Source: Wocania sp. (GTDB lineage: Bacteria; Bacteroidota; Bacteroidia; Flavobacteriales; Flavobacteriaceae). From it: a stretch of 64,000 bases of DNA. Position numbers and translations under genes: made by a program. A model generated the notes under the pieces. It had not been told where the DNA came from. It was given only the letters and a program-made list of their open reading frames with translations, and searched no databases. Positions 5,919 to 62,354 of the stretch are shown here, in pieces; within the stretch, counting starts at the first letter, position 1, and the number at the start of each line of letters is the position of its first letter. The stretch covers positions 32,724 through 96,723 of the forward strand of contig CBDDAJ010000036.1 of assembly GCA_965224845.1 (NCBI GenBank). Direction: 5' to 3'.

Positions 5919-6115
5919 GCCATTCTTAAACACGGAGCGTCTGGGTTGCTGATTGGGATTGTTTTTTCGAGGTTTCAGGAACCTGTTAAAAGGCAAGTAT
6001 TTATTTTAAAAAATTCTACATTTTTAATCGATACATACTAACAATCATATTTTTTTATTAATTTTAAGTTTATCAAAAGCAAAAGAGTAATTTTGCATTA
6101 ATAAAATAAAAAACT

Positions 6116-6553
6116 ATGTCTGGAACATTAAATAAAGTAATGCTTATTGGGCATTTAGGGGATGAAGTAAAAATGCATTACTTTGAAGGCGGTGGATGCA
6201 TTGGGCGGTTTCCGTTGGCTACAAACGAAACTTATACGAGCAAACAAACAAACGAACGTATCACAAATACCGAATGGCATAATATTGTAGTGCGTAATAA
6301 AGGCGCCGAAATTTGCGAAAAATATTTAAGTAAAGGAGATAAAGTTTATATTGAAGGCAGATTAAAAACCAGAAAGTGGCAAGACGATAAAGGCGCCGAT
6401 AGATATTCAACCGAAATTCATTGCACCGATTTCACGTTTTTATCAACTAAAAAAGAAAGTGAAAATAATAATGCTGCAGCTCAAGCGCCTGTAGCTAAAC
6501 CATCTGAAGAAACGAAACCTGTTGGCGAAGAAAATGACGACCTTCCGTTTTAA
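6116..6553 (+). CDS. ssb: Single-stranded DNA-binding protein
   Basis: OB-fold N-terminus (NKVMLIGHLGDEV). Acidic tail ends in DDLPF. Confidence 0.9.
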   Translation: MSGTLNKVMLIGHLGDEVKMHYFEGGGCIGRFPLATNETYTSKQTNERITNTEWHNIVVRNKGAEICEKYLSKGDKVYIEGRLKTRKWQDDKGADRYSTEIHCTDFTFLSTKKESENNNAAAQAPVAKPSEETKPVGEENDDLPF

Positions 6554-6612
6554 TACTAAGAAAACTTATCGATCTGCATATCGATGCCTATGTTTAACTA
6601 ATACTTTGGTAA

Positions 6613-7917
6613 TTGGACCCTGACCCCACGAGTTTTATATCATTACTTATAGCAATTGATTTTTCAGTTGTTAGTGGTTTTGCTTTGTTGTTTTTACTTT
6701 TAATTTGTTCTGCACTAATTTCTGGTGCCGAAGTAGCATTGTTTTCACTAACCAGAACTGATATTGAAGAAGGATTAGAAGCAAGATCTAAACGTATTCA
6801 AATTATTGCAAAGCTTTTAGAGCATCCCAAAAAATTACTTGCCACCATATTAGTATCTAACAATTTTATTAATATCGCTATTGTACTTTTGTTTGCTTAT
6901 TTAGGCAGCAATATGTTTGAATCGATTACCTCACCTATCTTGAAATTTACTATAGAGGTAATAATTGTAACCTTTCTTATTTTATTATTTGGAGAAATAT
7001 TACCCAAAATTTATGCGAGCAGAAATAAGTTAAAGTTTGCTTCTTTTATGGCCTATCCTTTACGCATTTTGGATGTATTACTTACACCTATTAGTATGCC
7101 AATGCGAGGTGTTACCATGGCTATTCATAAAAAACTAGGCAGGCAAAAATCTAATTTAAGTGTCGATCAATTATCGCAGGCTTTAGAACTTACAAGTGAA
7201 CATGATACAACCAAAGAAGAACAAAAAATATTGCAAGGTATTGTATCCTTTGGAAATACAGATACTAAACAAGTTATGCGACCACGCATAGATATTTTTG
7301 CACTTAATATAGAGCAAAAATATGCCGAAATCATGCCAGAAATCATAGCTAATGGCTATTCTAGAATTCCGGTTTTTAGAGACAATATTGATACTATTGA
7401 AGGCATCTTGTATGTAAAGGATTTATTGCCTTATATTGACAGAAAGCAATTTGATTGGCCTACATTATTACGGGAACCTTTTTTTGTGCCAGAAAACAAA
7501 AAACTGGACGACTTAATGACGGAGTTTCAAGACAAAAAAGTACACTTAGCTGTTGTTGTTGATGAATATGGCGGGACTTCCGGATTGATTTCTTTAGAAG
7601 ATATTATTGAAGAAATTGTTGGTGATATTAGTGATGAGTTTGACGACGAAGATTTGATGTACTCAAAACTGGATGATAATAACTACGTGTTTGAAGGTAA
7701 AACAGCATTAAAAGATTTTTATAAAGTTATTAAGGTTGAAGACGATACGGTTTTTGAGTCCCATAAAGGTGAAGCCGAAACCATTGCTGGATTTGTATTA
7801 GAAATATCAAAAAGCTTTCCTAAAATAAATAGTAAAATAAATTTTGAAAATTACGTTTTCACTATTGAAGCTTTAGATAAAAAACGTATTAAGCGCATTA
7901 AATTAACGAGAACTTAA
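6613..7917 (+). CDS. gldE: Gliding-motility protein GldE (CorC/HlyC-type CBS-domain membrane protein)
   Basis: DUF21 transmembrane N-terminus, CBS pair, CorC_HlyC C-terminus. Context mutY-ssb-gldE-gldD matches the Flavobacterium johnsoniae arrangement. Confidence 0.8.
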   Translation: MDPDPTSFISLLIAIDFSVVSGFALLFLLLICSALISGAEVALFSLTRTDIEEGLEARSKRIQIIAKLLEHPKKLLATILVSNNFINIAIVLLFAYLGSNMFESITSPILKFTIEVIIVTFLILLFGEILPKIYASRNKLKFASFMAYPLRILDVLLTPISMPMRGVTMAIHKKLGRQKSNLSVDQLSQALELTSEHDTTKEEQKILQGIVSFGNTDTKQVMRPRIDIFALNIEQKYAEIMPEIIANGYSRIPVFRDNIDTIEGILYVKDLLPYIDRKQFDWPTLLREPFFVPENKKLDDLMTEFQDKKVHLAVVVDEYGGTSGLISLEDIIEEIVGDISDEFDDEDLMYSKLDDNNYVFEGKTALKDFYKVIKVEDDTVFESHKGEAETIAGFVLEISKSFPKINSKINFENYVFTIEALDKKRIKRIKLTRT

Positions 7918-49422: not shown

Positions 49423-51264
49423 ATGAAAAACAATAATGTGCTAAATTATATTAAAGATGTATTAGAACACATGCCGTCTGACTGGCTGAACCTAACAACA
49501 CATCGACTGGATATTTATGATGAAACATTAGCCAAAACTCAATTCTTAGATCAGTTTGAACTCTTATTCAAAGCCAACAACTCTAAGACGTCGGCTCTAA
49601 GTAAATTACCCACCGCCTACGACTATATTCGATTAGGCCATCCTTTATCTTGTATACTAGAATGGGGAATTGCCAGCTTAAACAAGCTAAAACCAGAAAA
49701 TGTAATCAGCTTTTCTTCAAAGACCATACCCATTCTAGCCATTCTAAGAAAAAATTTACTTGACAACAAAAGCACACAAATTATCTATACAGGCGAATTA
49801 CCTGTTTTTTTTGATGCAGAGTTACTAAAAAACATTTATGGTTATGATTTTGATCTAAAGCGTATTGAAAAAACGGATGAGATTTCTCAGTTTAACGGCA
49901 GTACCATTTTTATATCGCAACAAAATAAGATCAGCAATATTAACCTCTATCCGAATATTGATTTTTTCATTAGTAATTACTCACAGCTTGGGAGTATTTT
50001 GTTAGTAAATGGCGAACAGAACAAAAGTTATATCTCAGAAATTCAACATGTTAGAAGAAGAGAAACCATTGCGATGACGCCAGATAATTGTTTGATGGCC
50101 TTAAAATCTCTAACCCAGCAGTCTCCTTTTGATATTGATAATAATGCAGAAACCGGCAAAACGATTGTTTTAGACTCAATTGCAGCCATTACCGGTACCA
50201 CTACAAAGCCACTAGTTGGTTCTAGTGGACTATCTATTCAATACGCGATTATGATGGGGCTCGTACACGATGCATTAGAAAATCATAAAGGTAAGGCTAT
50301 CAAATTTATTGTGCCTCCAAATTGTTATGGCGGAACTAATGACCAAGCAAGGCGAGTTGCTGCATGCATAGATAATGTTGAAGTGGTAGATTTACTAGTT
50401 GATGGTAATAATAATATGGTGAGTAGTATTGATACCATTTTAGATAAAATTGCTAACGAAGATGCTATCCCATACATCATTGCCGAAATACCAACAAACC
50501 CCAGAGTTGAGGTTCCTAATCTTGTAGAACTAAAAGCAGCTTTAGCTAAAGAACGTAAAACGGCTACTGGTAAAATTGCGATAGACCCTGTTTTTATTTT
50601 AGATCAAACATTTTGTCCTAATGTGCTCTTTTTAGGTGAAGGTGAGATCCTCTCTACGGTTAGAGCTATTTCATATGTTAGCGGATCAAAATTCCCTAGT
50701 GGCGGGAAATGTACGGCTGGCTACTGTGTAGGAAATAAAAAAACGGAAGCTTTAATAAAAAAAATAGAAAAGCATCTTATGCTTTGTGATAATAAGGCCA
50801 CTAACCTTCAAATTGAGATATTGGCAAAACAGCTACCGTCTATGAATCAAAGAATACATGATGCCTATAAAAATACTCGTGAATTTGTAAATTTTATCAA
50901 TGAAACCTTACCAGAAGCGAAAATAAATTTTGTATCGCCAGCATTGGCAAAACAAGGATTTACTCCCTCTGTATTTTCATTAGATCTGCCCACTAAAGGT
51001 AATACTACCGAAGAAAAAGAAACTTATAAAAGAGCGTTGAATCTTAAATTAATAAATTTAATGATTACCAAAATTCCTAATGAAAGCAAATACTGTGTAA
51101 GCTATGGGCAGTTACGTGGATGTTATTGGACCATACCGGCAACCTCTACCCAGGGGACCACTAAAGAAGATGATAAAGATTATATTGCGCGTGTAGCTCT
51201 TTCACCTAATCTGGATCTTGAGCTTCATAAAAAAATCTTTTTAGATTTTGTTGGAACAATTTGA
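49423..51264 (+). CDS. Divergent, insertion-expanded homolog of Cys/Met-metabolism PLP-dependent enzymes (613 aa); function unknown
   Basis: Aligns motif-by-motif with the MetB-like gene in this window: YDYIRLGHPL~YEYSRTHNPT, AEIPTNP~VETPTNP, YVSGSKFPSGG~HSATKYLGGH. 4-nt gap after the ArsC-family gene. Confidence 0.4.
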   Translation: MKNNNVLNYIKDVLEHMPSDWLNLTTHRLDIYDETLAKTQFLDQFELLFKANNSKTSALSKLPTAYDYIRLGHPLSCILEWGIASLNKLKPENVISFSSKTIPILAILRKNLLDNKSTQIIYTGELPVFFDAELLKNIYGYDFDLKRIEKTDEISQFNGSTIFISQQNKISNINLYPNIDFFISNYSQLGSILLVNGEQNKSYISEIQHVRRRETIAMTPDNCLMALKSLTQQSPFDIDNNAETGKTIVLDSIAAITGTTTKPLVGSSGLSIQYAIMMGLVHDALENHKGKAIKFIVPPNCYGGTNDQARRVAACIDNVEVVDLLVDGNNNMVSSIDTILDKIANEDAIPYIIAEIPTNPRVEVPNLVELKAALAKERKTATGKIAIDPVFILDQTFCPNVLFLGEGEILSTVRAISYVSGSKFPSGGKCTAGYCVGNKKTEALIKKIEKHLMLCDNKATNLQIEILAKQLPSMNQRIHDAYKNTREFVNFINETLPEAKINFVSPALAKQGFTPSVFSLDLPTKGNTTEEKETYKRALNLKLINLMITKIPNESKYCVSYGQLRGCYWTIPATSTQGTTKEDDKDYIARVALSPNLDLELHKKIFLDFVGTI

Positions 51265-51294
51265 AAATTAATCTGATATTATTTATAACCTTAA

Positions 51295-51386
51295 ATACAA
51301 AAGCTATGATTTATATGTCATAGCTTTTGTTTGTTTTGCTTACTCAATATGGCACCCGACACAGTCGAGCGCTAGCGGGGTTCAAT
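51295..51386. repeat. Junction module copy a: 13-bp-stem hairpin (acaaaagctatga..tcatagcttttgt) plus GC-rich box GGCACCCGACACAGTCGAGCGCTAGCGGGG; marks the island/core boundary
   Basis: Read directly. Same bipartite module recurs at 51645-51763/53174-53212, 53786-53909 and 56575-56695/58106-58148. Confidence 0.8.
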
Positions 51387-51398
51387 TTTTGATATCAA

Positions 51399-51644
51399 CT
51401 AATTTGGACGGTGACCGTTAAGACTATCTTTATTTACCATATTAATACTATCTAATTTTACTTTAATAGAGTCTACTATATTAATATTTTTCTTCTTCAA
51501 ATCAGACTTAATTTCCTGAACAGCTTCAATTGTTTTAACTGAAGCTTTTCCAAACCCAACACTTGCATTATAATAAAAAAATGCTGTTGCTATTAACAAT
51601 AAAACAAATAGCGATATTAATATAATTTTATTTTTTTTCATCAT
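51399..51644 (-). CDS. Small (81 aa) signal-peptide/TM protein; reading frame is open upstream into an rhs-derived YIYDATGVKLKKIVS segment
   Basis: ORF track. Hand translation of the upstream minus strand gives ...SYNISHIYDATGVKLKKIVS directly in frame before MMKKNK. Confidence 0.4.
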   Translation of the reverse strand: MMKKNKIILISLFVLLLIATAFFYYNASVGFGKASVKTIEAVQEIKSDLKKKNINIVDSIKVKLDSINMVNKDSLNGHRPN

Positions 51645-51763
51645 GCTTACTATTTTTTTAAGCTTAACACCAGTGGCATCGTAAATATGAGAAATATTAT
51701 AACTATATGAAATACAAAAGCTACTCTAGTTTTTAGAATAGCTTTTGTTTATTTTGCTTACTC
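51645..51763. repeat. Junction module copy b, hairpin half plus rhs-derived segment (interrupted by IS at 51764)
   Basis: gcttactatttttttaagcttaacaccagtggcatcgtaaat...acaaaagctactctagtttttagaatagcttttgtttattttgcttaCTC. Confidence 0.75.
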
Positions 51764-51802
51764 TGTCTTGTCCTGAAATAGGTTTACACAAAAGTGTAAC
51801 AA

Positions 51803-52180
51803 ATGGAAAGATATACTAAGACATCTTCATCAAAATTTCAAAATAGATATAGTGAAGAGTTCAAACAATTTTTATGTAATGAATTTCTAACGGGAACTGC
51901 AACTAGAAAATCAATCGAAAAGAAGTATAATATAGGTAATAACCAATTGACTGTTTGGTTAAAGAAATTAGGATATGACTATTCAAAACCCAGTATTGTA
52001 CCTTTGCCCTCAATGGCAAATCAACCGGACAAATTATCAAATAAAGAAAAAAACTCTTTATCTCAATTAGAGAAGGAACTTGTAGAAGCTCGATTATTAG
52101 CTGAAACTTATAGGAAAATGATTGAAATTGCAGAGAATGAATTTAAAATAAAGATTGTAAAAAAGTCCAATACCAAGTAA
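51803..52180 (+). CDS. IS3-family transposase OrfA (HTH)
   Basis: 125 aa. HTH plus leucine-zipper-like C-terminus. Slippery AAAAAAG near the 3-prime end. Confidence 0.9.
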   Translation: MERYTKTSSSKFQNRYSEEFKQFLCNEFLTGTATRKSIEKKYNIGNNQLTVWLKKLGYDYSKPSIVPLPSMANQPDKLSNKEKNSLSQLEKELVEARLLAETYRKMIEIAENEFKIKIVKKSNTK

Positions 52181-52188
52181 TCCAAGAG

Positions 52189-53100
52189 ATGAAAAACCTA
52201 TATCCAAAGGTAAGCTTAGGCAGGTTCTGCCGATTACTTGGTGTTACCCGTCAAGCATATTATCAACATTTTTGGTATCGTGAACAATTATCTTTTGAAG
52301 AAGATTTAATTGTGTCCGAAGTACATAAGATTAGAAAAAATCATCGCCATATGGGAGGCAGAAAACTATATGAACTATTACAACCATTTTTATTAGCACA
52401 TCAAATAAAAATGGGAAGAGATCGGCTATTCGATATTTTATCAGCTAATTATCTTTTGGTTAGACGTAAAAAGAAACAAACAATAACTACAAATTCTTTC
52501 CATAGGTTTAAGAAATATTCAAACCTGATTAAGAAGTTTATTCCTGATAAACCAAATCAATTATGGGTAAGTGATATCACATATTGGAAAATCGAAACTG
52601 GTTTTGTTTATATTAGTTTTATAACAGATGCTTATTCTAGAAAAATTGTCGGTTATCATTTAGCTGATAGTTTAATGACCTCAGAGACAATCAAAGCATT
52701 ACAGATGGCAATATTCAATCTACCAGAAGGCTTAATAGATAAGTCTAAATTGATACATCATTCAGATAGAGGAACTCAGTATTGTAGTAACGAATATGTA
52801 AAATTGTTGCAAACCAATAACATTGAAATTAGTATGGCTGAAAACGGTGACCCGCTAGAAAATGCAATTGCAGAACGGGTTAATGGAATTATTAAGGAAG
52901 AATATCTCAACGATTATCAATTAGAGAATATAAAAACAGCTAAAGAATTACTTGATACTGTTGTTAATCTATATAATAATGAAAGACCACATATGAGCAT
53001 AGGTAATCTTACTCCTAATCAAGTACATCAAAACAATATAAAAATCGAAAAACTATGGAAAAATTATTATCTAAAAAGCCCTATTATTGTAAACCGATAA
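52189..53100 (+). CDS. IS3-family transposase OrfB (DDE/rve integrase core; expressed as OrfAB by -1 frameshift)
   Basis: Candidate DDE residues in WVSDITY, HSDRGTQY and the ...ENAIAERVNG region. Confidence 0.9.
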   Translation: MKNLYPKVSLGRFCRLLGVTRQAYYQHFWYREQLSFEEDLIVSEVHKIRKNHRHMGGRKLYELLQPFLLAHQIKMGRDRLFDILSANYLLVRRKKKQTITTNSFHRFKKYSNLIKKFIPDKPNQLWVSDITYWKIETGFVYISFITDAYSRKIVGYHLADSLMTSETIKALQMAIFNLPEGLIDKSKLIHHSDRGTQYCSNEYVKLLQTNNIEISMAENGDPLENAIAERVNGIIKEEYLNDYQLENIKTAKELLDTVVNLYNNERPHMSIGNLTPNQVHQNNIKIEKLWKNYYLKSPIIVNR

Positions 53101-53173
53101 TAGGACTAAGAATGAATTGTAAACCTATTTTAGGATTAATGTAAAACATGTAAACTTTTTTTAGGACGAGACA

Positions 53174-53212
53174 CTCATAACGGCACCCGTCACAGACGAG
53201 CGCTAGCGGGGG
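53174..53212. repeat. Junction module copy b, box half (variant GGCACCCGTCACAGACGAGCGCTAGCGGGGG)
   Basis: Directly abuts the IS right end after the CTC duplication. Confidence 0.75.
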
Positions 53213-53249
53213 ATGACCAGTTATCCACTAATTTAATCCGTTACCACCC

Positions 53250-53762
53250 CTAATAGTTAATTAATTTAGAGGTCATATAACTTACTAAAGCTTTATCTAA
53301 GGGGTTTGGTTTTACAATTAAAGACAAACATGTTTCTCCATACTTCGAACCATTTGAATCTCTCATTACAAAATAAAACATATTTCCTTTAGCTTCTTCA
53401 TAACCTTCTTTAAAGTAGTCTGATTCAAAACCTATAAAATCACTATGGTAATTGCTTTTGTCAAAAGATTTTAAGAGAATCTTGTTTGGTTTTTTTATTT
53501 TGTTAGAAGAAACAATATTGATTTCATCTCCTTTTAATTCAACAATTATTTCATTTACATCACTCTCCTTTTTAGATATCAACAAATAAAATGTATTAGA
53601 TATTGAAAATAGCAAGTAAGGTGTATCTGTATCCTTAATCACCTTTTTAGATATTAAACTTGCCTTATTCCTACTTTCAAGTTCGTATTTATTTAATTTT
53701 TGTGCAGAACAAGAATTGCAAACAACTAAAAAAGCCAGAATAAGAATTTTTGAATACTTCAT
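53250..53762 (-). CDS. Secreted 170-aa protein (candidate orphan immunity protein)
   Basis: Signal peptide with Cys (LAFLVVCNSCSA). Sits between two junction modules in the Rhs island. Confidence 0.4.
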   Translation of the reverse strand: MKYSKILILAFLVVCNSCSAQKLNKYELESRNKASLISKKVIKDTDTPYLLFSISNTFYLLISKKESDVNEIIVELKGDEINIVSSNKIKKPNKILLKSFDKSNYHSDFIGFESDYFKEGYEEAKGNMFYFVMRDSNGSKYGETCLSLIVKPNPLDKALVSYMTSKLINY

Positions 53763-53785
53763 AATTTTAATTTCTAATTAATGGC

Positions 53786-53909
53786 GCATCGTAAATGTAA
53801 GAAATATTATAACTATATGAAATACAAAAGCTACTCTAGTTTTTAGAATAGCTTTTGTTTATTTTGCCTACTCATAACGGCACCCGACACAGTCGAGCGC
53901 TAGCAGGTG
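53786..53909. repeat. Junction module copy c, uninterrupted (rhs-derived segment + hairpin + ttattttgcctaCTCataac + box GGCACCCGACACAGTCGAGCGCTAGCAGG)
   Basis: Shows the unoccupied IS target: ...ctactc|ataacggcaccc.... Confidence 0.8.
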
Positions 53910-54158
53910 AAACATAAGATTATTAAACAATAAGTGTTTAAAACTCTTTCTATAAACTCAATAAATAATCATTGAAGTTTCTTAATTTAGTGTGGAATTA
54001 ATACAATGGAATAATGGCAAAACAAAAAAACTCAAATAGTAATTCAAATAGCAATTCTGGAAATAAAAATTCTAGTACTGGTTCTTCTACCTATAACTCC
54101 AATATCACTCGTACAGGGGCAGAATCAACTAAAGGTTCTGGTAGCGGTAATAGACCAT

Positions 54159-54659
54159 CTAAAACAGATAAAAATTAAACACTGTTAGTAAAACTAAACC
54201 TAAAAACATTAGTGATATAGAGACATAATTTAGTCTCTTCGTCCAAGTGTTTAAGTCTTGTATTTTATTATCTATGTTTTTGTGTTGACAGTCGTCTATT
54301 TTTTCTCCTTCCATTTTTTCTAACTCCTCTAAAATATATTTCTCTTCATTATTATTTGCACTATATCCAGTCATTTGAGAGATAAAATTTGATGCAATAG
54401 CTATTAAAAATGAAAGACCAGAGAATAGTAATAAATTAGGTTGGTCGATAGAAATATCTCCTGTTTTAAATTCTCTTAAGGTTTCAAAAATAATATATAA
54501 TCCAGCTCCACATATTGAAATAATTAACAAGTCCATTCTTCTTGTAGAATAGTTAGTTCTATCTCTTGTGTTTGTTAGATATTCTTTCCACTTATTATAC
54601 TTAAGTTCTTTCTTCCCTTTCATAGTATCTAAGATAGTAATTAAATTACTAAAATTCAT
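54159..54659 (-). CDS. Hypothetical 166-aa protein with two predicted TM segments (island cargo; possible immunity-type protein)
   Basis: ORF track; hydrophobic segments. No enzymatic motifs. Confidence 0.4.
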   Translation of the reverse strand: MNFSNLITILDTMKGKKELKYNKWKEYLTNTRDRTNYSTRRMDLLIISICGAGLYIIFETLREFKTGDISIDQPNLLLFSGLSFLIAIASNFISQMTGYSANNNEEKYILEELEKMEGEKIDDCQHKNIDNKIQDLNTWTKRLNYVSISLMFLGLVLLTVFNFYLF

Positions 54660-54754
54660 ACATAATACTCACTCTAACTTTTCAACACTTGAAAAACTAT
54701 TTTACTATTTCGAATAAAAAAATATAAAATCAACAATCAAATTCATCGACTATA

Positions 54755-54903
54755 CAAAAACAAAAAACGAGCGCACATATTGTACACTCGTTTCTTTTCT
54801 TAGTTTAAATATTATACAGTTTATTATTTACTTACTTTATTTCATTACCATATCATTTTATGGTGTGTGTGGATATGGAATGGATTATTTATGCGTTTGG
54901 GTT
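54755..54903. repeat. Conserved about 150-bp 3-prime cassette tail A (about 90% identical to 58256-58415), containing a bidirectional terminator aacgagcgcacatattgtacactcgtt
   Basis: Read directly; aligned by eye to copy B. Confidence 0.75.
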
Positions 54904-54905
54904 CT

Positions 54906-55241
54906 CTATTTACATTTCTCTATTCCTAAAATCTTATATAAATTTCTTTTCGAAATAAATACTTCTTTGTTTTTAACAAACAAATCTTCATCAATATAGA
55001 AAACAAGAGTGTCTTCTTCTTTGATAGCCTTTATGCTATAAGTAGTATTATATTTTAAATAAACATCATTGAGTTTAGAGTTTTTAATCGCTCTCTCAAA
55101 TTGATTAATTGTCTTTTCATCATCAATTCTTTTTTGAAAAGTATCACACCCATAAATTTCAAGTGCTATAAATTCATTTTTAATATAATTATTACAATTA
55201 GAAAATAGAAATACAATTAGTAATGTTAAATATAGTCTCAT
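54906..55241 (-). CDS. Putative immunity lipoprotein (111 aa) for the orphan Rhs toxin tip
   Basis: Lipobox LFSNC. Immediately (1 nt) downstream of the orphan rhs-CT ORF. Confidence 0.5.
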   Translation of the reverse strand: MRLYLTLLIVFLFSNCNNYIKNEFIALEIYGCDTFQKRIDDEKTINQFERAIKNSKLNDVYLKYNTTYSIKAIKEEDTLVFYIDEDLFVKNKEVFISKRNLYKILGIEKCK

Positions 55242-56369
55242 TTAATCCATTTTTATTTTATCAAACCACGTCAAGCTTTTTGTTTTTTCATCGTGTACTT
55301 TTTGTGCGCTCTTATTAACTTTTTCGCCAGGGTCTACTATTACAGTTGAGCCTTTAATTCTTCCCAAATCTCTAAAGAGTTTTGTTTGCGTTCTAACAGT
55401 TTTTTTTCTGTCTTTATAATCAATAACAGATTCTTTACCAAAGCTATCAAGTTTTTTAGGAAAAGCTCTCATGCAAAAATCTGAACAATTGTTATCAATA
55501 AAATTATAAAATTCTGTTCCTTCTTTTTGTTCTAGTAACTTTTTAGCTTTTTCATCATATTTACCAGATGTTTTTATTTGAATAGCTCCGTCAAATGATG
55601 AAATACCCTTTATAGAATTATTCTTTATATCTTCCAATGTTACTCCCTCTTGAATGCCTACATCTCCTTTTACTGTTTTGTTAAAAGATTTTAATGAAAT
55701 TCTATTATCACGTCCACCTGCTGGTGAAAAATCGTATAGAGTATATGTTCCATCTTCAATATAATTACCATCTTTATCCTCTAAATAGTTTCCTTCATCA
55801 TCTTTTTTGTAATTTGAAACCGCTAAAGCCGCATGTCCAACATCTTCTCTTCCTTCTCCTGGCAACCAAATAATCAAAATAACATCATTACCATCTGGGT
55901 CAATGACATTAATTGGATTGTTAATGGCATAATTGTATGGAGATTTATCAAAATGATTTTCAGATAATAAATCTAAATTCATCCACCTGCCCAAAGCAGC
56001 ATCATAATTCCTAGCAGTTACATCATACCAGCCTAATCCTAACTCATCCTGATACTCCTTACCACCAAACTTATACTTAAGCGCTGGACTCGTAGAATTA
56101 ACCACCGTATTATACCCTTTATGTTTAAGTCCAAAGGGATAGTAGTTGTTTTCTTCCAGGATTTCAGAAGTTGTTATAACACCATTATTGTTATTATCCT
56201 TATAACTCAACCTTATATTCCCTAAATGGTCTTTATATTGATATACATAGCTATAACTGCTCCCATTAACATCTACATAGCCTTCCGGGTGGGAATACTG
56301 TATATTCCTTAAAATACCACTATTAAAACGCCCCTTTTCACCCCATACTTTAAAATAAAAAGAAGCCAT
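55242..56369 (-). CDS. Orphan Rhs C-terminal cassette: end of RHS core plus distinct about 200-aa toxin domain
   Basis: Region HPEGYVDVNGSSYSYVYQYKDHLGNIRLSYKDNNNNGVITTSEILEENNYYPFGLKHKGYN is near-identical to the main RHS protein, followed by ARNYDAALGRW...NNPINVIDPDGN and a unique C-terminus. Confidence 0.75.
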   Translation of the reverse strand: MASFYFKVWGEKGRFNSGILRNIQYSHPEGYVDVNGSSYSYVYQYKDHLGNIRLSYKDNNNNGVITTSEILEENNYYPFGLKHKGYNTVVNSTSPALKYKFGGKEYQDELGLGWYDVTARNYDAALGRWMNLDLLSENHFDKSPYNYAINNPINVIDPDGNDVILIIWLPGEGREDVGHAALAVSNYKKDDEGNYLEDKDGNYIEDGTYTLYDFSPAGGRDNRISLKSFNKTVKGDVGIQEGVTLEDIKNNSIKGISSFDGAIQIKTSGKYDEKAKKLLEQKEGTEFYNFIDNNCSDFCMRAFPKKLDSFGKESVIDYKDRKKTVRTQTKLFRDLGRIKGSTVIVDPGEKVNKSAQKVHDEKTKSLTWFDKIKMD

Positions 56370-56692
56370 AGCTACAGCTATGCTTTAGTTTTCTTTTTCG
56401 CCTGAGGCAAAAATCATTCGTTTTTATTACATGCCATTTTAAGCAATATCCAGTATACAGAATTTCAATGAACCGTTTTACTCACACCATTCTATTTGAT
56501 AAATAAGTGTTCGTGAACCTCATTTTATTTCGGTTTCGTATACATAATTGCCTACATAATCAGTTGTTGCTCCCGTGCTTACTATTTTTTTAAGCTTAAC
56601 ACCAGTGGCATCGTAAATGTAAGAAATATTATAACTTTATAAAACACAAAAGCTACTCTAGTTTTTAGAATAGCTTTTGTTTATTTTGCTTA
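56370..56692 (-). pseudogene. Degenerate 5-prime remnant of the orphan rhs cassette (YIYDATGVKLKKIVSTGATTDYVGNYVYE then stop and insertions)
   Basis: Hand translation. Nucleotide similarity to main rhs at 59690-59830 is interrupted by stop and inserted segments. Confidence 0.6.
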
Positions 56693-56695
56693 CTC
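56575..56695. repeat. Junction module copy d, hairpin half (interrupted by IS copy 2 at 56696)
   Basis: Identical hairpin and ttattttgcttaCTC as copy b. Confidence 0.75.
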
Positions 56696-56734
56696 TGTCT
56701 TGTCCTGAAATAGGTTTACACAAAAGTGTAACAA

Positions 56735-57112
56735 ATGGAAAGATATACTAAGACATCTTCATCAAAATTTCAAAATAGATATAGTGAAGAGTTCAAACAA
56801 TTTTTATGTAATGAATTTCTAACGGGAACTGCAACTAGAAAATCAATCGAAAAGAAGTATAATATAGGTAATAACCAATTGACTGTTTGGTTAAAGAAAT
56901 TAGGATATGACTATTCAAAACCCAGTATTGTACCTTTGCCCTCAATGGCAAATCAACCGGACAAATTATCAAATAAAGAAAAAAACTCTTTATCTCAATT
57001 AGAGAAGGAACTTGTAGAAGCTCGATTATTAGCTGAAACTTATAGGAAAATGATTGAAATTGCAGAGAATGAATTTAAAATAAAGATTGTAAAAAAGTCC
57101 AATACCAAGTAA
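56735..57112 (+). CDS. IS3-family transposase OrfA (copy 2)
   Basis: Protein identical to 51803..52180. Confidence 0.9.
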   Translation: MERYTKTSSSKFQNRYSEEFKQFLCNEFLTGTATRKSIEKKYNIGNNQLTVWLKKLGYDYSKPSIVPLPSMANQPDKLSNKEKNSLSQLEKELVEARLLAETYRKMIEIAENEFKIKIVKKSNTK

Positions 57113-57120
57113 TCCAAGAG

Positions 57121-58032
57121 ATGAAAAACCTATATCCAAAGGTAAGCTTAGGCAGGTTCTGCCGATTACTTGGTGTTACCCGTCAAGCATATTATCAACA
57201 TTTTTGGTATCGTGAACAATTATCTTTTGAAGAAGATTTAATTGTGTCCGAAGTACATAAGATTAGAAAAAATCATCGCCATATGGGAGGCAGAAAACTA
57301 TATGAACTATTACAACCATTTTTATTAGCACATCAAATAAAAATGGGAAGAGATCGGCTATTCGATATTTTATCAGCTAATTATCTTTTGGTTAGACGTA
57401 AAAAGAAACAAACAATAACTACAAATTCTTTCCATAGGTTTAAGAAATATTCAAACCTGATTAAGAAGTTTATTCCTGATAAACCAAATCAATTATGGGT
57501 AAGTGATATCACATATTGGAAAATCGAAACTGGTTTTGTTTATATTAGTTTTATAACAGATGCTTATTCTAGAAAAATTGTCGGTTATCATTTAGCTGAT
57601 AGTTTAATGACCTCAGAGACAATCAAAGCATTACAGATGGCAATATTCAATCTACCAGAAGGCTTAATAGATAAGTCTAAATTGATACATCATTCAGATA
57701 GAGGAACTCAGTATTGTAGTAACGAATATGTAAAATTGTTGCAAACCAATAACATTGAAATTAGTATGGCTGAAAACGGTGACCCGCTAGAAAATGCAAT
57801 TGCAGAACGGGTTAATGGAATTATTAAGGAAGAATATCTCAACGATTATCAATTAGAGAATATAAAAACAGCTAAAGAATTACTTGATACTGTTGTTAAT
57901 CTATATAATAATGAAAGACCACATATGAGCATAGGTAATCTTACTCCTAATCAAGTACATCAAAACAATATAAAAATCGAAAAACTATGGAAAAATTATT
58001 ATCTAAAAAGCCCTATTATTGTAAACCGATAA
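57121..58032 (+). CDS. IS3-family transposase OrfB (copy 2)
   Basis: Protein identical to 52189..53100. Confidence 0.9.
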   Translation: MKNLYPKVSLGRFCRLLGVTRQAYYQHFWYREQLSFEEDLIVSEVHKIRKNHRHMGGRKLYELLQPFLLAHQIKMGRDRLFDILSANYLLVRRKKKQTITTNSFHRFKKYSNLIKKFIPDKPNQLWVSDITYWKIETGFVYISFITDAYSRKIVGYHLADSLMTSETIKALQMAIFNLPEGLIDKSKLIHHSDRGTQYCSNEYVKLLQTNNIEISMAENGDPLENAIAERVNGIIKEEYLNDYQLENIKTAKELLDTVVNLYNNERPHMSIGNLTPNQVHQNNIKIEKLWKNYYLKSPIIVNR

Positions 58033-58105
58033 TAGGACTAAGAATGAATTGTAAACCTATTTTAGGATTAATGTAAAACATGTAAACTTTTTTTAGGACG
58101 AGACA

Positions 58106-58148
58106 CTCATAACGGCACCCGTCACAGACGAGCGCTAGCAGGTTATTC
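58106..58148. repeat. Junction module copy d, box half (variant GGCACCCGTCACAGACGAGCGCTAGCAGG)
   Basis: Abuts the IS copy 2 right end. Confidence 0.75.
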
Positions 58149-58255
58149 AAAACAATGTCTTAGTTGATTTAGACATGAACAACTTAAACATTCCTTTCAT
58201 TAATCATGAAGGTTGATACATCTTTACACGTTTGGTAGTTAGCTTAAATCACTCC

Positions 58256-58415
58256 ACAAAACAAAAAACGAGCGCACATTAAGTACACTCGTTTTCTTTT
58301 CTTAGTTTAATATATTATACAGTTATTTACTTATCTTACTTTATTTCATTTACCATATCTAGTGATGTGTGTGGATATGGAATGGATTATTTATGCGTTT
58401 GGGTTAATAAATAAA
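58256..58415. repeat. Conserved 3-prime cassette tail B (pairs with 54755-54903) with bidirectional terminator
   Basis: Aligned by eye; about 90% identity over about 150 bp. Confidence 0.75.
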
Positions 58416-58434
58416 TTATGGTATAAATGAACTT

Positions 58435-58752
58435 CTATTTTGTATGACCAAACCTTATAACTTTACAGTCTGATTTTTGAATCTCAATAAATGGAACACC
58501 ACCAACATCGTAATTTAAAGTCCCTTCTACTAACCATACTTTGTCATCTTCTATTGACCTAGCCTTTAAAGGTAAGCTTTCATCGATTCTTTCTCCATAA
58601 ACTGAATAAAGAAGGGTACTTGCAACTTTAAGAGCGACTTGTTCATCATCAACAATACCTTTTTTTTCATTATTAGAGTTTCCTGCTTGAAATGATAAAC
58701 ACAGAATTGTCAAAATAAATACAACACTTAAAATCTTTAGATTAAATTTCAT
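58435..58752 (-). CDS. Putative immunity lipoprotein (105 aa) for the main Rhs toxin
   Basis: Lipobox (LTILCLSFQAG). 11 nt downstream of the RHS stop. Confidence 0.5.
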   Translation of the reverse strand: MKFNLKILSVVFILTILCLSFQAGNSNNEKKGIVDDEQVALKVASTLLYSVYGERIDESLPLKARSIEDDKVWLVEGTLNYDVGGVPFIEIQKSDCKVIRFGHTK

Positions 58753-58763
58753 TATTACAATTT

Positions 58764-61700
58764 TTATAATTTCTCTTCTTCTATCCCTTTTGGTTCTAGG
58801 TTATTAACTGGTTCTACTTTTTCTCTACTCCCATCAGGATTAATATTATTTACCCTTACAGGCGAATTGGGGTCACTAGGAACATTTGTTGAAACTATGG
58901 TTACTTTTCCAGTTATAGGGTCTATTTTTTGAACAGTTCCACTTGGTGTAACAACATAAGTCGGCAATCCAATTTCCTTAGTTCTTTCTACATCGTTATA
59001 AGATGGCTCATTATCAGCATCCGTCTCTCCCTCAATAGTTTCCTTTTCATCATTTCCGTGAGTATGAATATCTCCTGAAGGCTCACTACCTTTCGGAATT
59101 GAGCTTTCATCTGGGATAAAAGCACCAGCCTCACTACCTATTAACGGTTCAACATAGGAATATGTTGTTTCGCCATTTTTTGTAGTAGAATAGAAAATAG
59201 AAGCATACTCTCTTTTACTTGTTATTGAAACTCCATTATATTGTTTTCCAAAATTTACTGCTGCATCATCAACAGATTTATGAACAGAATGTGGCTCTAA
59301 ACCTTCAAGTTCTCTAGCATCTATGACTCTATTTCCACTAAATACATATGGTCCCCAATCCATATATTCTTCTGTTAATGGGTCTATTGTCATAAATCTA
59401 CCAATTGCTGGGTCGTGATTTCTCCATTTAAATTGTATCCAGTTTAACCCTAACTCATTTTGTTCTTCTTGCTCTTGGAATCCATACGGATGGTCTGTAC
59501 CATTTATAACATTGTTATACCCTTTATGTTTCAGTCCAAATGGATAGTAGTTGTTTTCTTCCAGGATTTCAGAAGTTGTTATAACACCATTATTGTTATT
59601 ATCCTTATAACTCAACCTTATATTCCCTAAATGGTCTTTGTATTGATATACATAGCTATAACTGCTCCCATTAACATCTACATAACCTTCCGGGTGATTA
59701 AAGAATTTCAAAGAACCGCCTTCGTATACATAATTGCCTGCATAATCAGTGGTAGTTGATGTACTACTATTGTTATACACAAGCTTTCTCAGTTTTATGC
59801 CTGTGGCATCATAAATATACTTAATTTTTTTGTTATTATTGTTATCAAATTTTACTTCATCAGGAAGATTTAAATGGTTATAGCTAACCCCATTAACTGA
59901 GGCAGTACCAATGCCCTTATTCAAGTCTTTAACCATATTGCCGTTAGCATCATAAGTGTATTCTGTGGTTGTATTAGAGCCATCTTTAAAGCCATAAGTA
60001 TCATTTCCATTATCTAATACTTTTTTAAGCCTATTACTATTGGTTTCATAGGTATAAACCAGATTGTCCATCACCCCAAAACTTGTAGCTCCACTATTGG
60101 TATGTCCTCTTCTCTGTAAATCAGTGATGTTTCCATTCTTATCATAGGCAACCGAGGTTAGGTTATAATTACTGGTATTCCCCGTAGCTCCTGTAATTCT
60201 ATTTAAAGCATCGTAAGTATATTTATACCACTTTAAGCCCTGGTCTGTGTTTTTGGTCTTCCACTCGGTCTCAGAGATATTGCCGTTATACAAAGGGGTA
60301 CCGCTATGACTAACTGTATTGTAATTTATTTTAAAACTAAATAAATCTGTTCCTAAGCTTGATGGATCATTTATTTGTTTAAGCCAGCCGCGAACATTAT
60401 AAGCGTAATTTACAGTTTGTAAGCGATTAGCATGAGATGATTTACCACCTACCCCTTTACTTTCTAACTGGCCTAAATTGTTGTAAACATTATCAACAAT
60501 GGTTTCCTGTTCTAAACTGTTTAGGGTTTGTTTTTGTCTTAACAGCCTGCCTTCATGGTCGTAAACAAAAACATCTCGTGTTGTAATGCTGGTTTGCCCG
60601 GTTTTAGAATGTGTGGTTTTTGTTTTATCAACTTTACCCACAAAATCCAGTTTGCTCTCTACAATGTCTGTTGTTTGTAAATAATCATTAATAGTTTTTA
60701 TATAAATAGGGCGTCCTTTTACATCATATCCTGTTATGGTGGTAATCCACTTTGCAGGGTTAGAGTTATCTAATACTCGTACTTTACTTCCTGTAGCCAG
60801 ACCTTTGGTTAATTTTTGAGTAGCACTCGCATTATTGTAATTAATAACCGCCTGCCCCTCGATACTGGAAGGCAGATTTGTAAATCCATTAAAGGAATAA
60901 TTATCATAATAGTTAATAGTATATACTTTTGATATGTTCGTTTTTGGATACACCAGATTATCATTACTGTAATATATATTAGCGCCTCCTAAACTAACAG
61001 ATGTACTGCTTTTAGTTACATATTGCAATGCCGTGGTATTTGCAGCATTTTGTAAAAAGGTTCTGCTAGAGTTAGTCGTTACAAGTCCGGTATAGGCTAC
61101 CCTTCCAAAAGCATCATATTTAGTGAATAGCCACGCATTGGTTGACGGGACACGTTGGTTAGCATCTTGTGTCATTATAGGCTGATCTAGCTTATTATAT
61201 ACTATATATTCACAGCCTTTACCCGGTATTTTCTTTTCTACCAGACGGTTTCTTTTATCGTAGGTATACTGATAGCACAAGGCATTAAGTTCTGAGGTGG
61301 TTGGTTTATCTGTTGTCGCTTCTGATTTTGGGGGCAATACAAAACTTAAGTTCCCATAATCATCATATACATAATAGGTGTCGTGCGCTACATTGGTTTG
61401 TGTTACACCATTTACTTTTGAGGTACCATAGCTGCGTTTTAAAATAACGCGCCCTTGCTTGTCTTTAAATTCTTCGGTGGTATTTGCTGTTCCGCTAGTC
61501 CAATTCTCATCTTTAGTAATGGTTTTATAAAGGGTACCAGCCTTATAATATCCGCCATCTACTGCTGTGTTTAAGATCAAAGCAGGCGTGTAGGTAGTCA
61601 CTCCATTTGTTGTGGCAGCACTTAAGTTTACTTCATAACGTCTTATCGTGTTTGCTGTGTTGGTTTGGTAATCAAACTTAATTTCTTTTCCGCCACCCAG

Positions 61701-62354
61701 TTTCCAATCTTTTCCCGGAGCGGCTTGTTTTAATACCCTGTTAAGTGGTGAGGCTTCAAACGCTTTTTGAGCATAGGCATTAATATTGTTTAGGACCACT
61801 GACGGAAAATCTGTAGCATAATTGGATAAATAATACTGTTTGGTTGCTGTAGCTTTATTTCCACGATAGGCGCCAATATTTCCCGTGGCTTCCATATAGG
61901 GAAGCCAGTCCTTATCGGGTCTTCCGTAAGTATCATAATCGATATGGGTAATAATATCTTTTTTGCCCGGTGCAGATTTAATCCCTATATTTTGCATGGG
62001 CCTGCCCAGGCCATCAAAATAAGTAATTTGCTCTATAACATCGCCTTCTTTAGCAGTAGCAGAATTAAAGCTCGTCATAGGTTTTTGATAGCGTCGTGTA
62101 AATACATAATTTTCATTACTAAACGTCATAGAGGTATAGGGGTCTGTTGCTGTTGTTGGTTCTATAATTTGAGCGGTAAAGGTACTACCGCTTTTTATCC
62201 ATGTATTGGGTTTTAATGTAATACTATGGGTCGCTATTAAGGTTTCTGTTCCGGTTACCGTATAGGCATTTTCTTTAACTATAGTTGTTGGTGTTTGTGC
62301 AATAACTATTTGAGCTAACAGCAAAAAGGCTATGGTATATATATATTGTTTCAT
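58764..62354 (-). CDS. RHS/YD-repeat protein (1196 aa) with Sec signal peptide, RHS repeat-associated core and polymorphic C-terminal toxin domain
   Basis: Signal peptide MKQYIYTIAFLLLAQIVIAQT. Many YD repeats (YxYDxxGR/N). Core end WRNHDPAIGRFMTIDP. Unique C-terminal about 190 aa. Confidence 0.85.
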   Translation of the reverse strand: MKQYIYTIAFLLLAQIVIAQTPTTIVKENAYTVTGTETLIATHSITLKPNTWIKSGSTFTAQIIEPTTATDPYTSMTFSNENYVFTRRYQKPMTSFNSATAKEGDVIEQITYFDGLGRPMQNIGIKSAPGKKDIITHIDYDTYGRPDKDWLPYMEATGNIGAYRGNKATATKQYYLSNYATDFPSVVLNNINAYAQKAFEASPLNRVLKQAAPGKDWKLGGGKEIKFDYQTNTANTIRRYEVNLSAATTNGVTTYTPALILNTAVDGGYYKAGTLYKTITKDENWTSGTANTTEEFKDKQGRVILKRSYGTSKVNGVTQTNVAHDTYYVYDDYGNLSFVLPPKSEATTDKPTTSELNALCYQYTYDKRNRLVEKKIPGKGCEYIVYNKLDQPIMTQDANQRVPSTNAWLFTKYDAFGRVAYTGLVTTNSSRTFLQNAANTTALQYVTKSSTSVSLGGANIYYSNDNLVYPKTNISKVYTINYYDNYSFNGFTNLPSSIEGQAVINYNNASATQKLTKGLATGSKVRVLDNSNPAKWITTITGYDVKGRPIYIKTINDYLQTTDIVESKLDFVGKVDKTKTTHSKTGQTSITTRDVFVYDHEGRLLRQKQTLNSLEQETIVDNVYNNLGQLESKGVGGKSSHANRLQTVNYAYNVRGWLKQINDPSSLGTDLFSFKINYNTVSHSGTPLYNGNISETEWKTKNTDQGLKWYKYTYDALNRITGATGNTSNYNLTSVAYDKNGNITDLQRRGHTNSGATSFGVMDNLVYTYETNSNRLKKVLDNGNDTYGFKDGSNTTTEYTYDANGNMVKDLNKGIGTASVNGVSYNHLNLPDEVKFDNNNNKKIKYIYDATGIKLRKLVYNNSSTSTTTDYAGNYVYEGGSLKFFNHPEGYVDVNGSSYSYVYQYKDHLGNIRLSYKDNNNNGVITTSEILEENNYYPFGLKHKGYNNVINGTDHPYGFQEQEEQNELGLNWIQFKWRNHDPAIGRFMTIDPLTEEYMDWGPYVFSGNRVIDARELEGLEPHSVHKSVDDAAVNFGKQYNGVSITSKREYASIFYSTTKNGETTYSYVEPLIGSEAGAFIPDESSIPKGSEPSGDIHTHGNDEKETIEGETDADNEPSYNDVERTKEIGLPTYVVTPSGTVQKIDPITGKVTIVSTNVPSDPNSPVRVNNINPDGSREKVEPVNNLEPKGIEEEKL

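What the first reader, a model, noticed from the sequence alone, without database searches (positions are those of the whole stretch)
51645..53212. IS3-family element inserted at the identical position of two separate module copies with the same CTC duplication
Two identical 1410-bp IS copies (51764-53173 and 56696-58105) interrupt the junction module between ...ttgcttaCTC and ataacggcaccc.... The uninterrupted copy c shows the empty site. Flank similarity on both sides stops where the module stops. This is reminiscent of IS1397/ISKpn1 (also IS3 family), which insert specifically into palindromic units of BIMEs. The alternative is a duplication of [module+IS], and the fact that both IS-adjacent boxes share the GTCACAGAC variant supports that alternative.
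Basis: partly seen in the sequence, partly recalled or inferred. Interest (0 to 1): 0.7.

Follow-up and report, generated by a model that had tools for sequence, protein, structure and literature searches.

The report
REP-hairpin-seeking IS3 insertion sequence
Two identical copies of a jumping gene sit at exactly the same spot in two copies of a short repeated intergenic module. Relatives in other Flavobacteriaceae show why: this element lands 9 bases beside a small palindromic repeat (a REP hairpin), a behaviour known in Proteobacteria but, in the papers I could search, not reported for this phylum.

Summary
Two 1410-bp IS3-family elements (51764-53173 and 56696-58105) are 100% identical. Each is flanked by a CTC duplication, and each splits the same about 155-bp module. 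Two empty module copies in the window show the uninterrupted site.

The same or closely related boxes flank REP-associated tyrosine transposase (RAYT) genes in Tamlana and in metagenome contigs.

Among relatives of this IS (77-82% nt identity; Aquimarina, Tamlana, Flavobacterium, metagenomes), 11 of 27 unique right-end flanks pass a strict hairpin test, and all 11 hairpins start 8-10 nt from the IS end. About 15 pass on looser reading. None of 17 left-end flanks passes. In random 45-mers the rate is 0.055% (binomial P about 2e-29). TSDs and left flanks differ between sites, and one Aquimarina lineage has four near-identical copies beside four different REPs.

The best reading is therefore two independent, REP-directed, orientation-specific insertions. 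A short-tract homologous-recombination copy of the IS plus its proximal flanks between modules is not excluded (about 0.2). A larger segmental duplication is excluded.

This works like IS1397, ISKpn1 and ISPsy8, but the IS inserts beside the hairpin rather than in it, and in Bacteroidota. Interest is moderate.

The parts
51764..53173 (+). IS copy A, 1410 bp, IS3 family. IRL is TGTCTTGTCCTGAAATAGGTTTACA; IRR (reverse complement) is TGTCTCGTCCTAAAAAAAGTTTACA.
51803..52180 (+). orfA of copy A (125 aa, HTH). The A_AAA_AAG slippery heptamer lies at 52159-52165, in phase for a -1 frameshift.
52189..53100 (+). orfB of copy A (303 aa, DDE/rve). It is in the -1 frame relative to orfA, and that frame is open from 52147.
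   Evidence: rve, E = 1.7e-22. NCBIfam IS3 transposase, 246.8 bits against a cutoff of 160..
56696..58105 (+). IS copy B, identical to copy A (orfA 56735-57112, orfB 57121-58032).
51761..51763 (.). CTC target-site duplication of copy A, left copy. The right copy is 53174-53176.
56693..56695 (.). CTC target-site duplication of copy B, left copy. The right copy is 58106-58108.
53183..53203 (-). REP-like hairpin A, GCACCCGTC-ACA-GACGAGCGC. It starts 9 nt from the IRR tip (3-nt TSD plus the 6-nt spacer ATAACG). The tail TAGCGGGGG runs to 53212. On the minus strand the two mismatches become G-U/G-T wobble pairs.
58115..58135 (-). REP-like hairpin B, identical to A and at the same 9-nt offset from IS copy B.
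53880..53900 (-). REP-like hairpin of empty module c. It carries the compensatory variant GAC...GTC. The unoccupied CTC target is at 53871-53873.
51352..51372 (-). REP-like hairpin of the fourth, more diverged empty module. The unoccupied CTC is at 51343-51345.
51644..51760 (-). Left part of module A. On the minus strand it holds the terminator hairpin (51716-51746), a spacer, and a fragment of the Rhs core coding sequence (YDATGVKLKKIVS). The homologous left part of module B is 56576-56692, and that of module c is 53786-53870.
   Evidence: and reading of the sequence.

Best explanation
The element is an intact IS3-family insertion sequence. It has orfA and orfB joined by a -1 frameshift, a DDE transposase, TG...CA inverted repeats and a 3-bp duplication. 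Its clade chooses targets by a small GC-rich hairpin of the REP type: 9-bp stem, 3-nt loop, conserved xCAC head, GCGx foot and nAGCGGG tail.

Integration places the IRR end 9 nt from the base of the hairpin: the 3 duplicated bases, then a 6-nt spacer, then the hairpin. The hairpin itself stays intact.

In this window the REP is the right-hand part of a repeated junction module. On the minus strand the module reads REP, 6 nt, CTC, terminator hairpin, Rhs core fragment, and it separates cassettes of an Rhs toxin/immunity array. All module copies carry CTC at the ruler-defined position. Two independent transpositions of the same active IS therefore give the same junction and the same CTC duplication.

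Shown here: the anatomy of the IS; the fixed offset and the IRR-side bias across many independent sites; and the link between the box family and RAYT genes.

Inferred: that the transposase (OrfAB, or OrfA) recognises the hairpin or its foot directly and measures the distance; and that copies A and B arose by transposition rather than by recombination.
For: IS anatomy.

Fixed offset: among IS relatives of about 77-82% nt identity there are 27 unique IRR flanks. Eleven pass a strict hairpin test, and all 11 are at offset 8-10. The control rate is 11 of 20000 random 45-mers, giving a binomial P of 1.8e-29. In full-length copies, 9 of 19 right flanks pass against 0 of 17 left flanks (Fisher P = 0.0012). 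Looser cases (L138, L121, L125, L129, L071) bring the total to about 15 of 25.

Independence of sites: the TSDs differ (CTC, CCT, TGC, ATCT, TTA) and the left flanks are unrelated.

Aquimarina Aq78 lineage: four copies differ by 0-1 nt in 1411, each is beside a different REP, and one of those REPs has the same 29-nt hairpin-plus-tail as the window's copy A.

Held-out test: the locus L149-152 was fetched after the rule was stated, and it has a REP at offset 9 and a TTA TSD.

The box is a REP: inverted copies flank a gene that scores 83.8 bits on NCBIfam NF047646, REP-associated tyrosine transposase (cutoff 80), in Tamlana. The window's exact box lies near RAYT homologues in 4 of 7 metagenome contigs, about 60 nt away in L142 and L144, about 330 nt in L143 and about 1.8 kb in L145. 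RAYT homologues also lie beside IS relatives in 8 loci.

The box is not part of the IS: the TSDs lie between the IS and the box, empty boxes exist, and the box type varies between copies of one IS.
Against: About 40% of related IS copies have no recognisable REP at the IRR side. The preference is therefore not absolute, or some metagenome contigs are chimeric across the repeat.

The source genome's other IS copies could not be retrieved.

Copies A and B also share every base of the proximal flanks (50 bp on the left, 35 bp on the right). Recombination would give the same pattern.

The two empty modules in the window are not occupied although they carry CTC and a REP.

No experiment shows that the transposase does the targeting.
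Confidence: 0.75

Rival explanations
1. One insertion, then homologous recombination. The IS entered one module once. A gene-conversion or double-crossover event, using the module homology on either side, then copied IS plus proximal flanks into the second module.
For: The identical tract is IS plus 50 bp on the left and 35 bp on the right, with mismatches just beyond it on both sides. Both occupied modules share the T at 51758/56690 (C at 53868 in module c) and the T..A box variant, which the two empty modules lack. Rhs arrays recombine often (established knowledge). The module left flanks are mosaic between A, B and c.
Against: It needs crossovers within about 50 bp and about 35 bp of homology, close to the minimum for RecA-dependent exchange. 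The proximal flank consists of a terminator hairpin and the REP, which are also nearly invariant in empty copy c (3 differences in 85 nt), so A/B identity there is weak evidence. The T..A variant is the only form found elsewhere. Transposition to REPs at exactly this offset is documented in relatives with non-homologous flanks, so recombination is not needed to explain the pattern.
Confidence: 0.2
2. The two copies lie inside one larger segmental (tandem) duplication of a block of the array.
For: Other repeats with 3.4-3.5 kb spacing exist in the array: 56092-56291 against 59497-59696, and 54757-54903 against 58258-58405.
Against: Similarity around the IS copies ends at the module borders, and sequence beyond them is unrelated. 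The neighbouring ORFs differ: an 81-aa and a 170-aa ORF flank copy A, while the orphan Rhs C-terminal fragment and an NTF2-fold immunity gene flank copy B. The flanks carry 6 differences in 156 nt against 0 in 1410 nt of IS (Fisher P = 9e-7). The spacing of A to B (4932 bp) does not match the other repeats.
Confidence: 0.02
3. There is no mechanistic targeting. Insertions are random, and only those in harmless intergenic spots near terminators and REPs survive.
For: Several more distant relatives lie just after ordinary terminator hairpins (L051, L052, L063, L048). REPs sit in 3' intergenic regions, where insertions are tolerated.
Against: Selection cannot produce a fixed 8-10 nt offset, or a strict IRR-side bias of 9 of 19 against 0 of 17.
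Confidence: 0.03

Closest known systems
IS1397 (E. coli), ISKpn1 (K. pneumoniae) and ISPsy8 (P. syringae): IS3-family elements that insert specifically into REP/palindromic units (Tobes & Pareja 2006, PMC1525189, and the references in it to Clement 1999 and Wilde 2001, 2003)
   Same: These are IS3-family elements with an orfA/orfB frameshift architecture and a 3-bp duplication. Their insertion point is fixed relative to a REP hairpin, and several identical copies sit in different REPs of one genome.
   Different: Those elements break the REP at the loop or symmetry axis of the hairpin. This one leaves the hairpin intact and lands 9 nt outside its base, with IRR always on the REP side. The host phylum differs (Bacteroidota, not Proteobacteria). 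The REP class differs: an xCAC head and a GCG-nAGC-GGG tail, with no GTAG tag. Specificity appears partial, about 55-60% of sites. Relatedness of the transposases was not tested.
REP-targeting IS110-family elements (IS621, ISPa11, ISPpu9, ISPpu10; PMC1525189, PMC12288879)
   Same: They home to REPs at one position and in one orientation.
   Different: They use a different transposase family (DEDD), make no or different duplications, and insert inside the REP.
IS911 targeting of IR-like sequences (own knowledge: Loot et al. 2002, EMBO J)
   Same: An IS3-family member that inserts next to a recognised DNA sequence at a set distance and orientation. Some boxes contain GACGAG or GTCTCG, which resemble the IR tip.
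   Different: The resemblance to the IR is absent from several occupied boxes (L121, L130, L131). The hairpin is the only constant feature.
REP/RAYT (REPtron) systems of Bacteroidetes: TnpA-REP subclass 2.6 or 2.4 of Quentin et al. 2018 (PMC6006769)
   Same: The box flanks a RAYT gene in inverted orientation in Tamlana. That RAYT carries the YIHNNP and WQ motifs listed for these subclasses. Copies of the hairpin occur elsewhere in the genomes.
   Different: No RAYT gene lies in the window, and all 4 boxes of the window lie in one Rhs array. Genome-wide copy number could not be measured.

Membership tests
IS3 family | DDE (rve) transposase in orfB that matches the family profile | tested here: met
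   rve, E = 1.7e-22. NF033516 IS3 family transposase, 246.8 bits against a cutoff of 160.
IS3 family | Two ORFs in frames 0 and -1 with an A_AAA_AAG slippery site in the overlap | tested here: met
   the heptamer is at 52159-52165, in phase with orfA, and the orfB frame is open from 52147.
IS3 family | Length of 1.2-1.55 kb, imperfect terminal IRs ending 5'-TG...CA-3', and a 3-4 bp target duplication | tested here: met
   1410 bp, IRs matching at 20 of 25 positions, and a CTC duplication at both copies.
REP-targeting IS (type 1 association of Tobes & Pareja 2006) | Every copy inserted at the same position relative to a REP | tested here: inconclusive
   2 of 2 copies in the window and 4 of 4 in the Aquimarina Aq78 lineage are at offset 9-10. 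Across the clade only about 11-15 of 25-27 sites qualify. Other copies in the source genome could not be retrieved.
REP-targeting IS (IS1397 / ISKpn1 / ISPsy8) | Insertion within the REP hairpin (loop or symmetry axis), leaving two REP fragments | tested here: not met
   The hairpin is intact and lies 9 nt outside the IRR in all positive cases.
REP-targeting IS (IS1397 / ISKpn1) | Target specificity determined by the transposase, shown experimentally | not testable with these tools
   This needs a transposition assay.
REP-targeting IS (IS1397 / ISKpn1) | Close phylogenetic relationship of the transposases | not tested
The plasmid search returned only generic IS3 names at under 50% identity.
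REP element / REPtron | Short GC-rich imperfect palindrome with conserved unpaired ends and covarying stem | tested here: met
   Across 31 variants 87.8% of cells are paired, 6 of 9 pairs change on both sides, and CAC/GCG and an A.C mismatch are invariant. The rows were selected for pairing, so the covariation is partly circular.
REP element / REPtron | Inverted copies flanking a RAYT (Y1 transposase) gene | tested here: met
   In L135 (Tamlana) the boxes lie at 2826-2856 (reverse), 4995-5022 (forward) and 5207-5236 (reverse) around gene 2946-3503, which hits NF047646 at 83.8 bits against a cutoff of 80. The window's exact box lies about 60 nt from RAYT homologues in L142 and L144. This was not testable in the source genome itself: no RAYT lies in the window.
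REP element / REPtron | High copy number dispersed through the genome | not testable with these tools
   There are only 4 copies in 64 kb, all in one array. Extra copies not next to an IS occur in related loci.
REP element (GTAG- or CGTC-tagged superfamilies, Di Nocera 2013) | Unpaired GTAG or CGTC tag at one end | tested here: not met
   The conserved ends are xCAC and GCGx-nAGC-GGG.
Segmental duplication | Homology extending beyond the module on both sides, with uniform divergence | tested here: not met

The most novel reading that the evidence does not exclude
A whole subgroup of IS3-family elements in Bacteroidota has a structure-reading target mechanism. It recognises the foot of RAYT-type REP hairpins, possibly as extruded or single-stranded hairpins or as a RAYT- or host-protein-bound complex. 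It integrates with a 9-nt molecular ruler and a fixed polarity. That would be a mode distinct from the loop insertion of IS1397, ISKpn1 and ISPsy8. Because REPs punctuate Rhs toxin/immunity cassette arrays in these bacteria, the IS would repeatedly seed identical 1.4-kb homologies at cassette junctions and so drive cassette reshuffling.
Probability: 0.3. Interest if true: 0.6.

Novelty: new variant of a known kind. Interest (0 to 1): 0.45.

Why it matters
REP-directed transposition has been documented experimentally or by genome analysis almost only in Proteobacteria, and there the IS3-family elements break the hairpin. This case gives a clean, statistically strong example in Flavobacteriaceae with a different geometry: a fixed 9-nt offset, an intact hairpin and a strict IRR polarity.

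It also links a poorly described Bacteroidota REP/RAYT family to an IS that can serve as a marker for it. The targeting rule is directly testable with a plasmid-borne REP.

In practical terms it explains why identical IS copies recur at identical junctions in Rhs toxin/immunity arrays. Such recurrences should not be read as duplications without further evidence.

Tried and rejected
1. Retrieving the source genome's other IS copies failed. Exact-protein look-ups of OrfB, OrfA, the neighbouring immunity protein, P0001 and P0122 found nothing on record.

2. The single genome-contig scan used an IR consensus that proved too general. It still supplied useful relatives.

3. Rfam on 51000-59000 gave only sub-threshold hits (RefA9, L20 leader), which I regard as chance.

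4. A hairpin scan that required perfect contiguous stems was uninformative, because REP stems carry a conserved mismatch. A comparison of MFE between the right and left flanks was also uninformative, with only 2 left flanks at that threshold.

5. A tblastn search against plasmids, meant to obtain a named IS relative, returned only "IS3 family transposase" at under 50% identity.

6. IR mimicry by the box (GACGAG or GTCTCG resembling the IR tip) was considered as the targeting signal. I rejected it as the general rule because several occupied boxes lack the resemblance.

7. The idea that the box belongs to the IS was rejected. The TSDs lie between them, empty boxes exist, and the box type differs between identical IS copies.

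Full report
**1. The observation**

The sequence and a pairwise alignment confirm two elements of 1410 bp, at 51764-53173 and 56696-58105, identical at every base. Each is bounded by the trinucleotide CTC (51761-63 and 53174-76; 56693-95 and 58106-08). The IR consensus occurs only at these four ends in the window.

To the left, 120 bp are homologous (51644-51763 against 56576-56695), with five mismatches, all at least 50 bp from the IS. To the right, 35 bp are identical. A G/A difference follows, and beyond it the sequences are unrelated.

The same module occurs uninterrupted at 53786-53910 (...ttgcctaCTCataacgGCACCC...). A more diverged form lies at about 51290-51380. The "box" GGCACCCGWCACAGWCGAGCGCTAGC occurs four times against zero expected by chance.

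**2. Anatomy of the IS**

- orfA (125 aa, weak HTH_Tnp_1 match) and orfB (303 aa) are in frames 0 and -1.
- orfB matches rve at 1.7e-22 and NCBIfam IS3 transposase at 246.8 bits against a cutoff of 160.
- An A_AAA_AAG heptamer at 52159-52165 is in phase for a -1 frameshift, and the orfB frame is open from 52147.
- The ends are TGTCTTGTCCTGAAATAGGTTTACA and TGTCTCGTCCTAAAAAAAGTTTACA (TG...CA).

All defining features of the IS3 family are met.

**3. What the module is**

On the minus strand the neighbourhood is an Rhs array:
- a DUF6443-RHS-DUF4329 protein (58764-62354);
- an NTF2-fold immunity gene (58435-58752);
- an orphan Rhs C-terminal fragment (55242-56369);
- several small ORFs.

Read on that strand, each module is: box hairpin, 6 nt, CTC, a strong terminator hairpin, a spacer, and a 45-nt fragment of Rhs core coding sequence (YDATGVKLKKIVS).

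The box folds as a 9-bp stem with a 3-nt loop. Its two mismatches on the plus strand become G-U (or G-T) wobble pairs on the minus strand. The A..T to T..A difference between boxes is compensatory.

**4. The box is a REP-type element**

In Tamlana (L135) a 185-aa gene scores above the curated cutoff for NCBIfam REP-associated tyrosine transposase (83.8 against 80). It also matches Pfam Y1_Tnp. It is flanked by inverted copies of GGCACTCGTTnCAAACGAGCGCTAGC. That sequence has the head and tail of the window's box, with compensatory changes in the stem.

A metagenome scan for the window's box, with both variable positions left free, found 7 contigs. All carry the T..A form. Four have a RAYT homologue on the same contig, about 60 nt away in L142 and L144, about 330 nt in L143 and about 1.8 kb in L145. 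None has the IS. L141 shows an empty terminator-cttACTC-tagacg-GCACCC site like the window's.

Across the fetched loci a family emerges: xCAC-N6-N3-N6'-GCGx-nAGC-GGG, with CAC, GCG and an A.C mismatch at stem position 3 invariant, and a freely covarying inner stem. The rows were chosen for pairing, so the covariation count is partly circular.

Quentin et al. 2018 (PMC6006769) describe Bacteroidetes RAYT subclasses whose genes are flanked by atypical hairpins that are also found elsewhere in the genome. The Tamlana protein carries their YIHNNP and WQ motifs.

**5. Does the IS target the box?**

The source genome could not be retrieved, so I used relatives. These came from a homologue search, exact-protein look-ups and the IR scan. 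Together they gave IS copies of 77-82% nt identity in Aquimarina, Tamlana, Hyunsoonleella, Flavobacterium and marine metagenomes.

Their right (IRR) flanks repeatedly read: 3 nt, then 6 nt, then a REP hairpin. Examples:
- Aquimarina L136: cct ttacca GCACCCGTCACAGACGAGCGCtagcggggg. This is the window's own box, with TSD CCT and an unrelated left flank.
- L137, L138 and L139: CCACTAGCGAGACGCTAGCGGgagcgggg.
- Tamlana L135: TSD TGC, beside the RAYT gene's REP.
- AD1 L121, L001, L081, L127, L130 and L131.

With a strict hairpin definition, 11 of 27 unique IRR flanks of the clade have a hairpin, and all 11 start 8-10 nt from the IS end. Among 20000 random 45-mers from the same loci, 11 do. The binomial P is 1.8e-29. 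In full-length copies, 9 of 19 right flanks qualify against 0 of 17 left flanks (Fisher P = 0.0012). Looser cases raise the proportion to about 60%.

A locus fetched after the rule was formulated (L149-152) fits it: TSD TTA, a REP at offset 9, and the IS inside an inverted REP doublet.

In the Aquimarina Aq78 lineage, four copies differ by 0-1 nt of 1411. They sit beside four different REPs, and most of their flanks are non-homologous. Three of the four lie downstream of DUF6443/RHS toxin and immunity genes, as in the window. RAYT homologues lie on the same locus as the IS in 8 of about 140 loci, most of them within a few hundred bases of it. That is far more than expected for a gene that is usually single-copy in a genome.

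The box is not part of the IS. The duplications lie between the IS and the box, empty boxes exist, and identical IS copies adjoin different box types.

**6. Are copies A and B two insertions or one?**

A larger segmental duplication is excluded. Homology stops at the module borders, the neighbouring genes differ, and the flanks carry 6 differences in 156 nt against 0 in 1410 (P = 9e-7).

Two readings remain. The first is two independent REP-directed insertions. The ruler fixes the site, and all modules have CTC there, so the same TSD results. The second is one insertion copied by a short recombination tract of IS plus 50 bp and 35 bp.

The shared T..A box variant does not favour the second reading, because it is the only form found elsewhere. 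The proximal flank is made of constrained hairpins that are also nearly invariant in empty copy c. Recombination would need crossovers in about 50 and about 35 bp of homology. Transposition to REPs is documented in relatives. I put independent insertion at about 0.75 and recombination at about 0.2.

**7. Mechanism**

Shown: the fixed 9-nt offset, the IRR polarity and the intact hairpin.

Inferred: OrfAB or OrfA recognises the hairpin foot (the conserved xCAC/GCGx) or an extruded structure, and positions strand transfer one helical turn away. IR mimicry by the box fits some targets but not others. Survival bias alone cannot give a fixed offset and polarity.

**8. Comparison with known systems**

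REP targeting by IS elements is established. IS1397, ISKpn1 and ISPsy8 in the IS3 family do it, and members of IS110, IS4, IS256 and IS5 do too (Tobes & Pareja 2006, PMC1525189). Those IS3 members break the REP at the hairpin axis.

Here the IS lies beside an intact hairpin, in another phylum, and with a REP class that lacks the GTAG or CGTC tags of Di Nocera et al. 2013 (PMC3733652). A full-text search found no report of REP-targeting IS3 elements in Flavobacteriaceae. The library is incomplete, so this is not proof of novelty.

**9. Verdict**

It is a new variant of a known kind, of moderate interest.

Noticed in passing
window 51352-51372, 53183-53203, 53880-53900, 58115-58135: All four REP-like boxes of the 64-kb window lie in the Rhs orphan toxin/immunity array. 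On the minus strand each sits downstream of a small ORF and just upstream of a terminator hairpin. REPs therefore punctuate the cassettes. The window contains no RAYT gene.
   Followed up: partly
window 51644-51686, 56576-56620 (minus strand): The left end of the module encodes an Rhs core fragment (YDATGVKLKKIVS...). In copy B it continues into a degenerate orphan Rhs C-terminal ORF (55242-56369). In copy A it runs straight into an 81-aa ORF (51399-51644).
   Followed up: partly
window 54757-54903 and 58258-58405: A second repeat (80-98% identical) lies immediately downstream of both immunity genes (54906-55241 and 58435-58752). It contains a hairpin, ACGAGCG...CACTCGT. It gives only sub-threshold Rfam L20-leader hits, and its function is unknown.
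   Followed up: no
window 56092-56291 and 59497-59696: A 200-nt stretch at 94% identity links the orphan Rhs fragment and the main Rhs gene core. This is the homology expected for C-terminal displacement by recombination.
   Followed up: no
L137 and L139 (Aquimarina sp. Aq78 lineage), 3374-3574: The left flanks of two IS copies are diverged copies (about 200 nt) of one repeated intergenic module with different terminator stems. This is the same picture as A and B in the window. L137 and L138 lack a target duplication, which suggests recombination between IS copies.
   Followed up: partly
L149-L152 (Logan SRR138701xx), around 2000-3560 of L149: An IS relative (77% identity) is inserted inside a doublet of inverted REPs. 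One REP lies about 30 nt to the left of IRL and the other 9 nt to the right of IRR. The empty site would be REPIN-like.
   Followed up: partly
L129 3500-3571 and L131 150-223: The sequence abutting IRL (atgtaaactttctaaatcgtcttgtt) resembles a degenerate IRR of the same IS. This may be insertion next to an old IS end.
   Followed up: no
L027 4721-4839 and L073 1131-1239: Two IRL-type matches lie 83-93 nt apart in the same orientation, in distant relatives. This is a duplicated left end of unknown meaning.
   Followed up: no
L106, L096, L020, L066, L060: RAYT homologues lie on the same loci as much more distant IS relatives that share the IR consensus (Saprospiraceae, Cytophagaceae, Chitinophagaceae), in most cases within a few hundred bases of the IS and about 0.9 kb away in L020. 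The REP association may therefore be older than the Flavobacteriaceae clade.
   Followed up: partly
L087 (Aquimarina litoralis) 5960-7530: This IS relative (78% identity) sits inside a larger palindromic element (gctagctttggggtacccc ... ggggtaccccaaagctaag), not a REP of the family described here.
   Followed up: no
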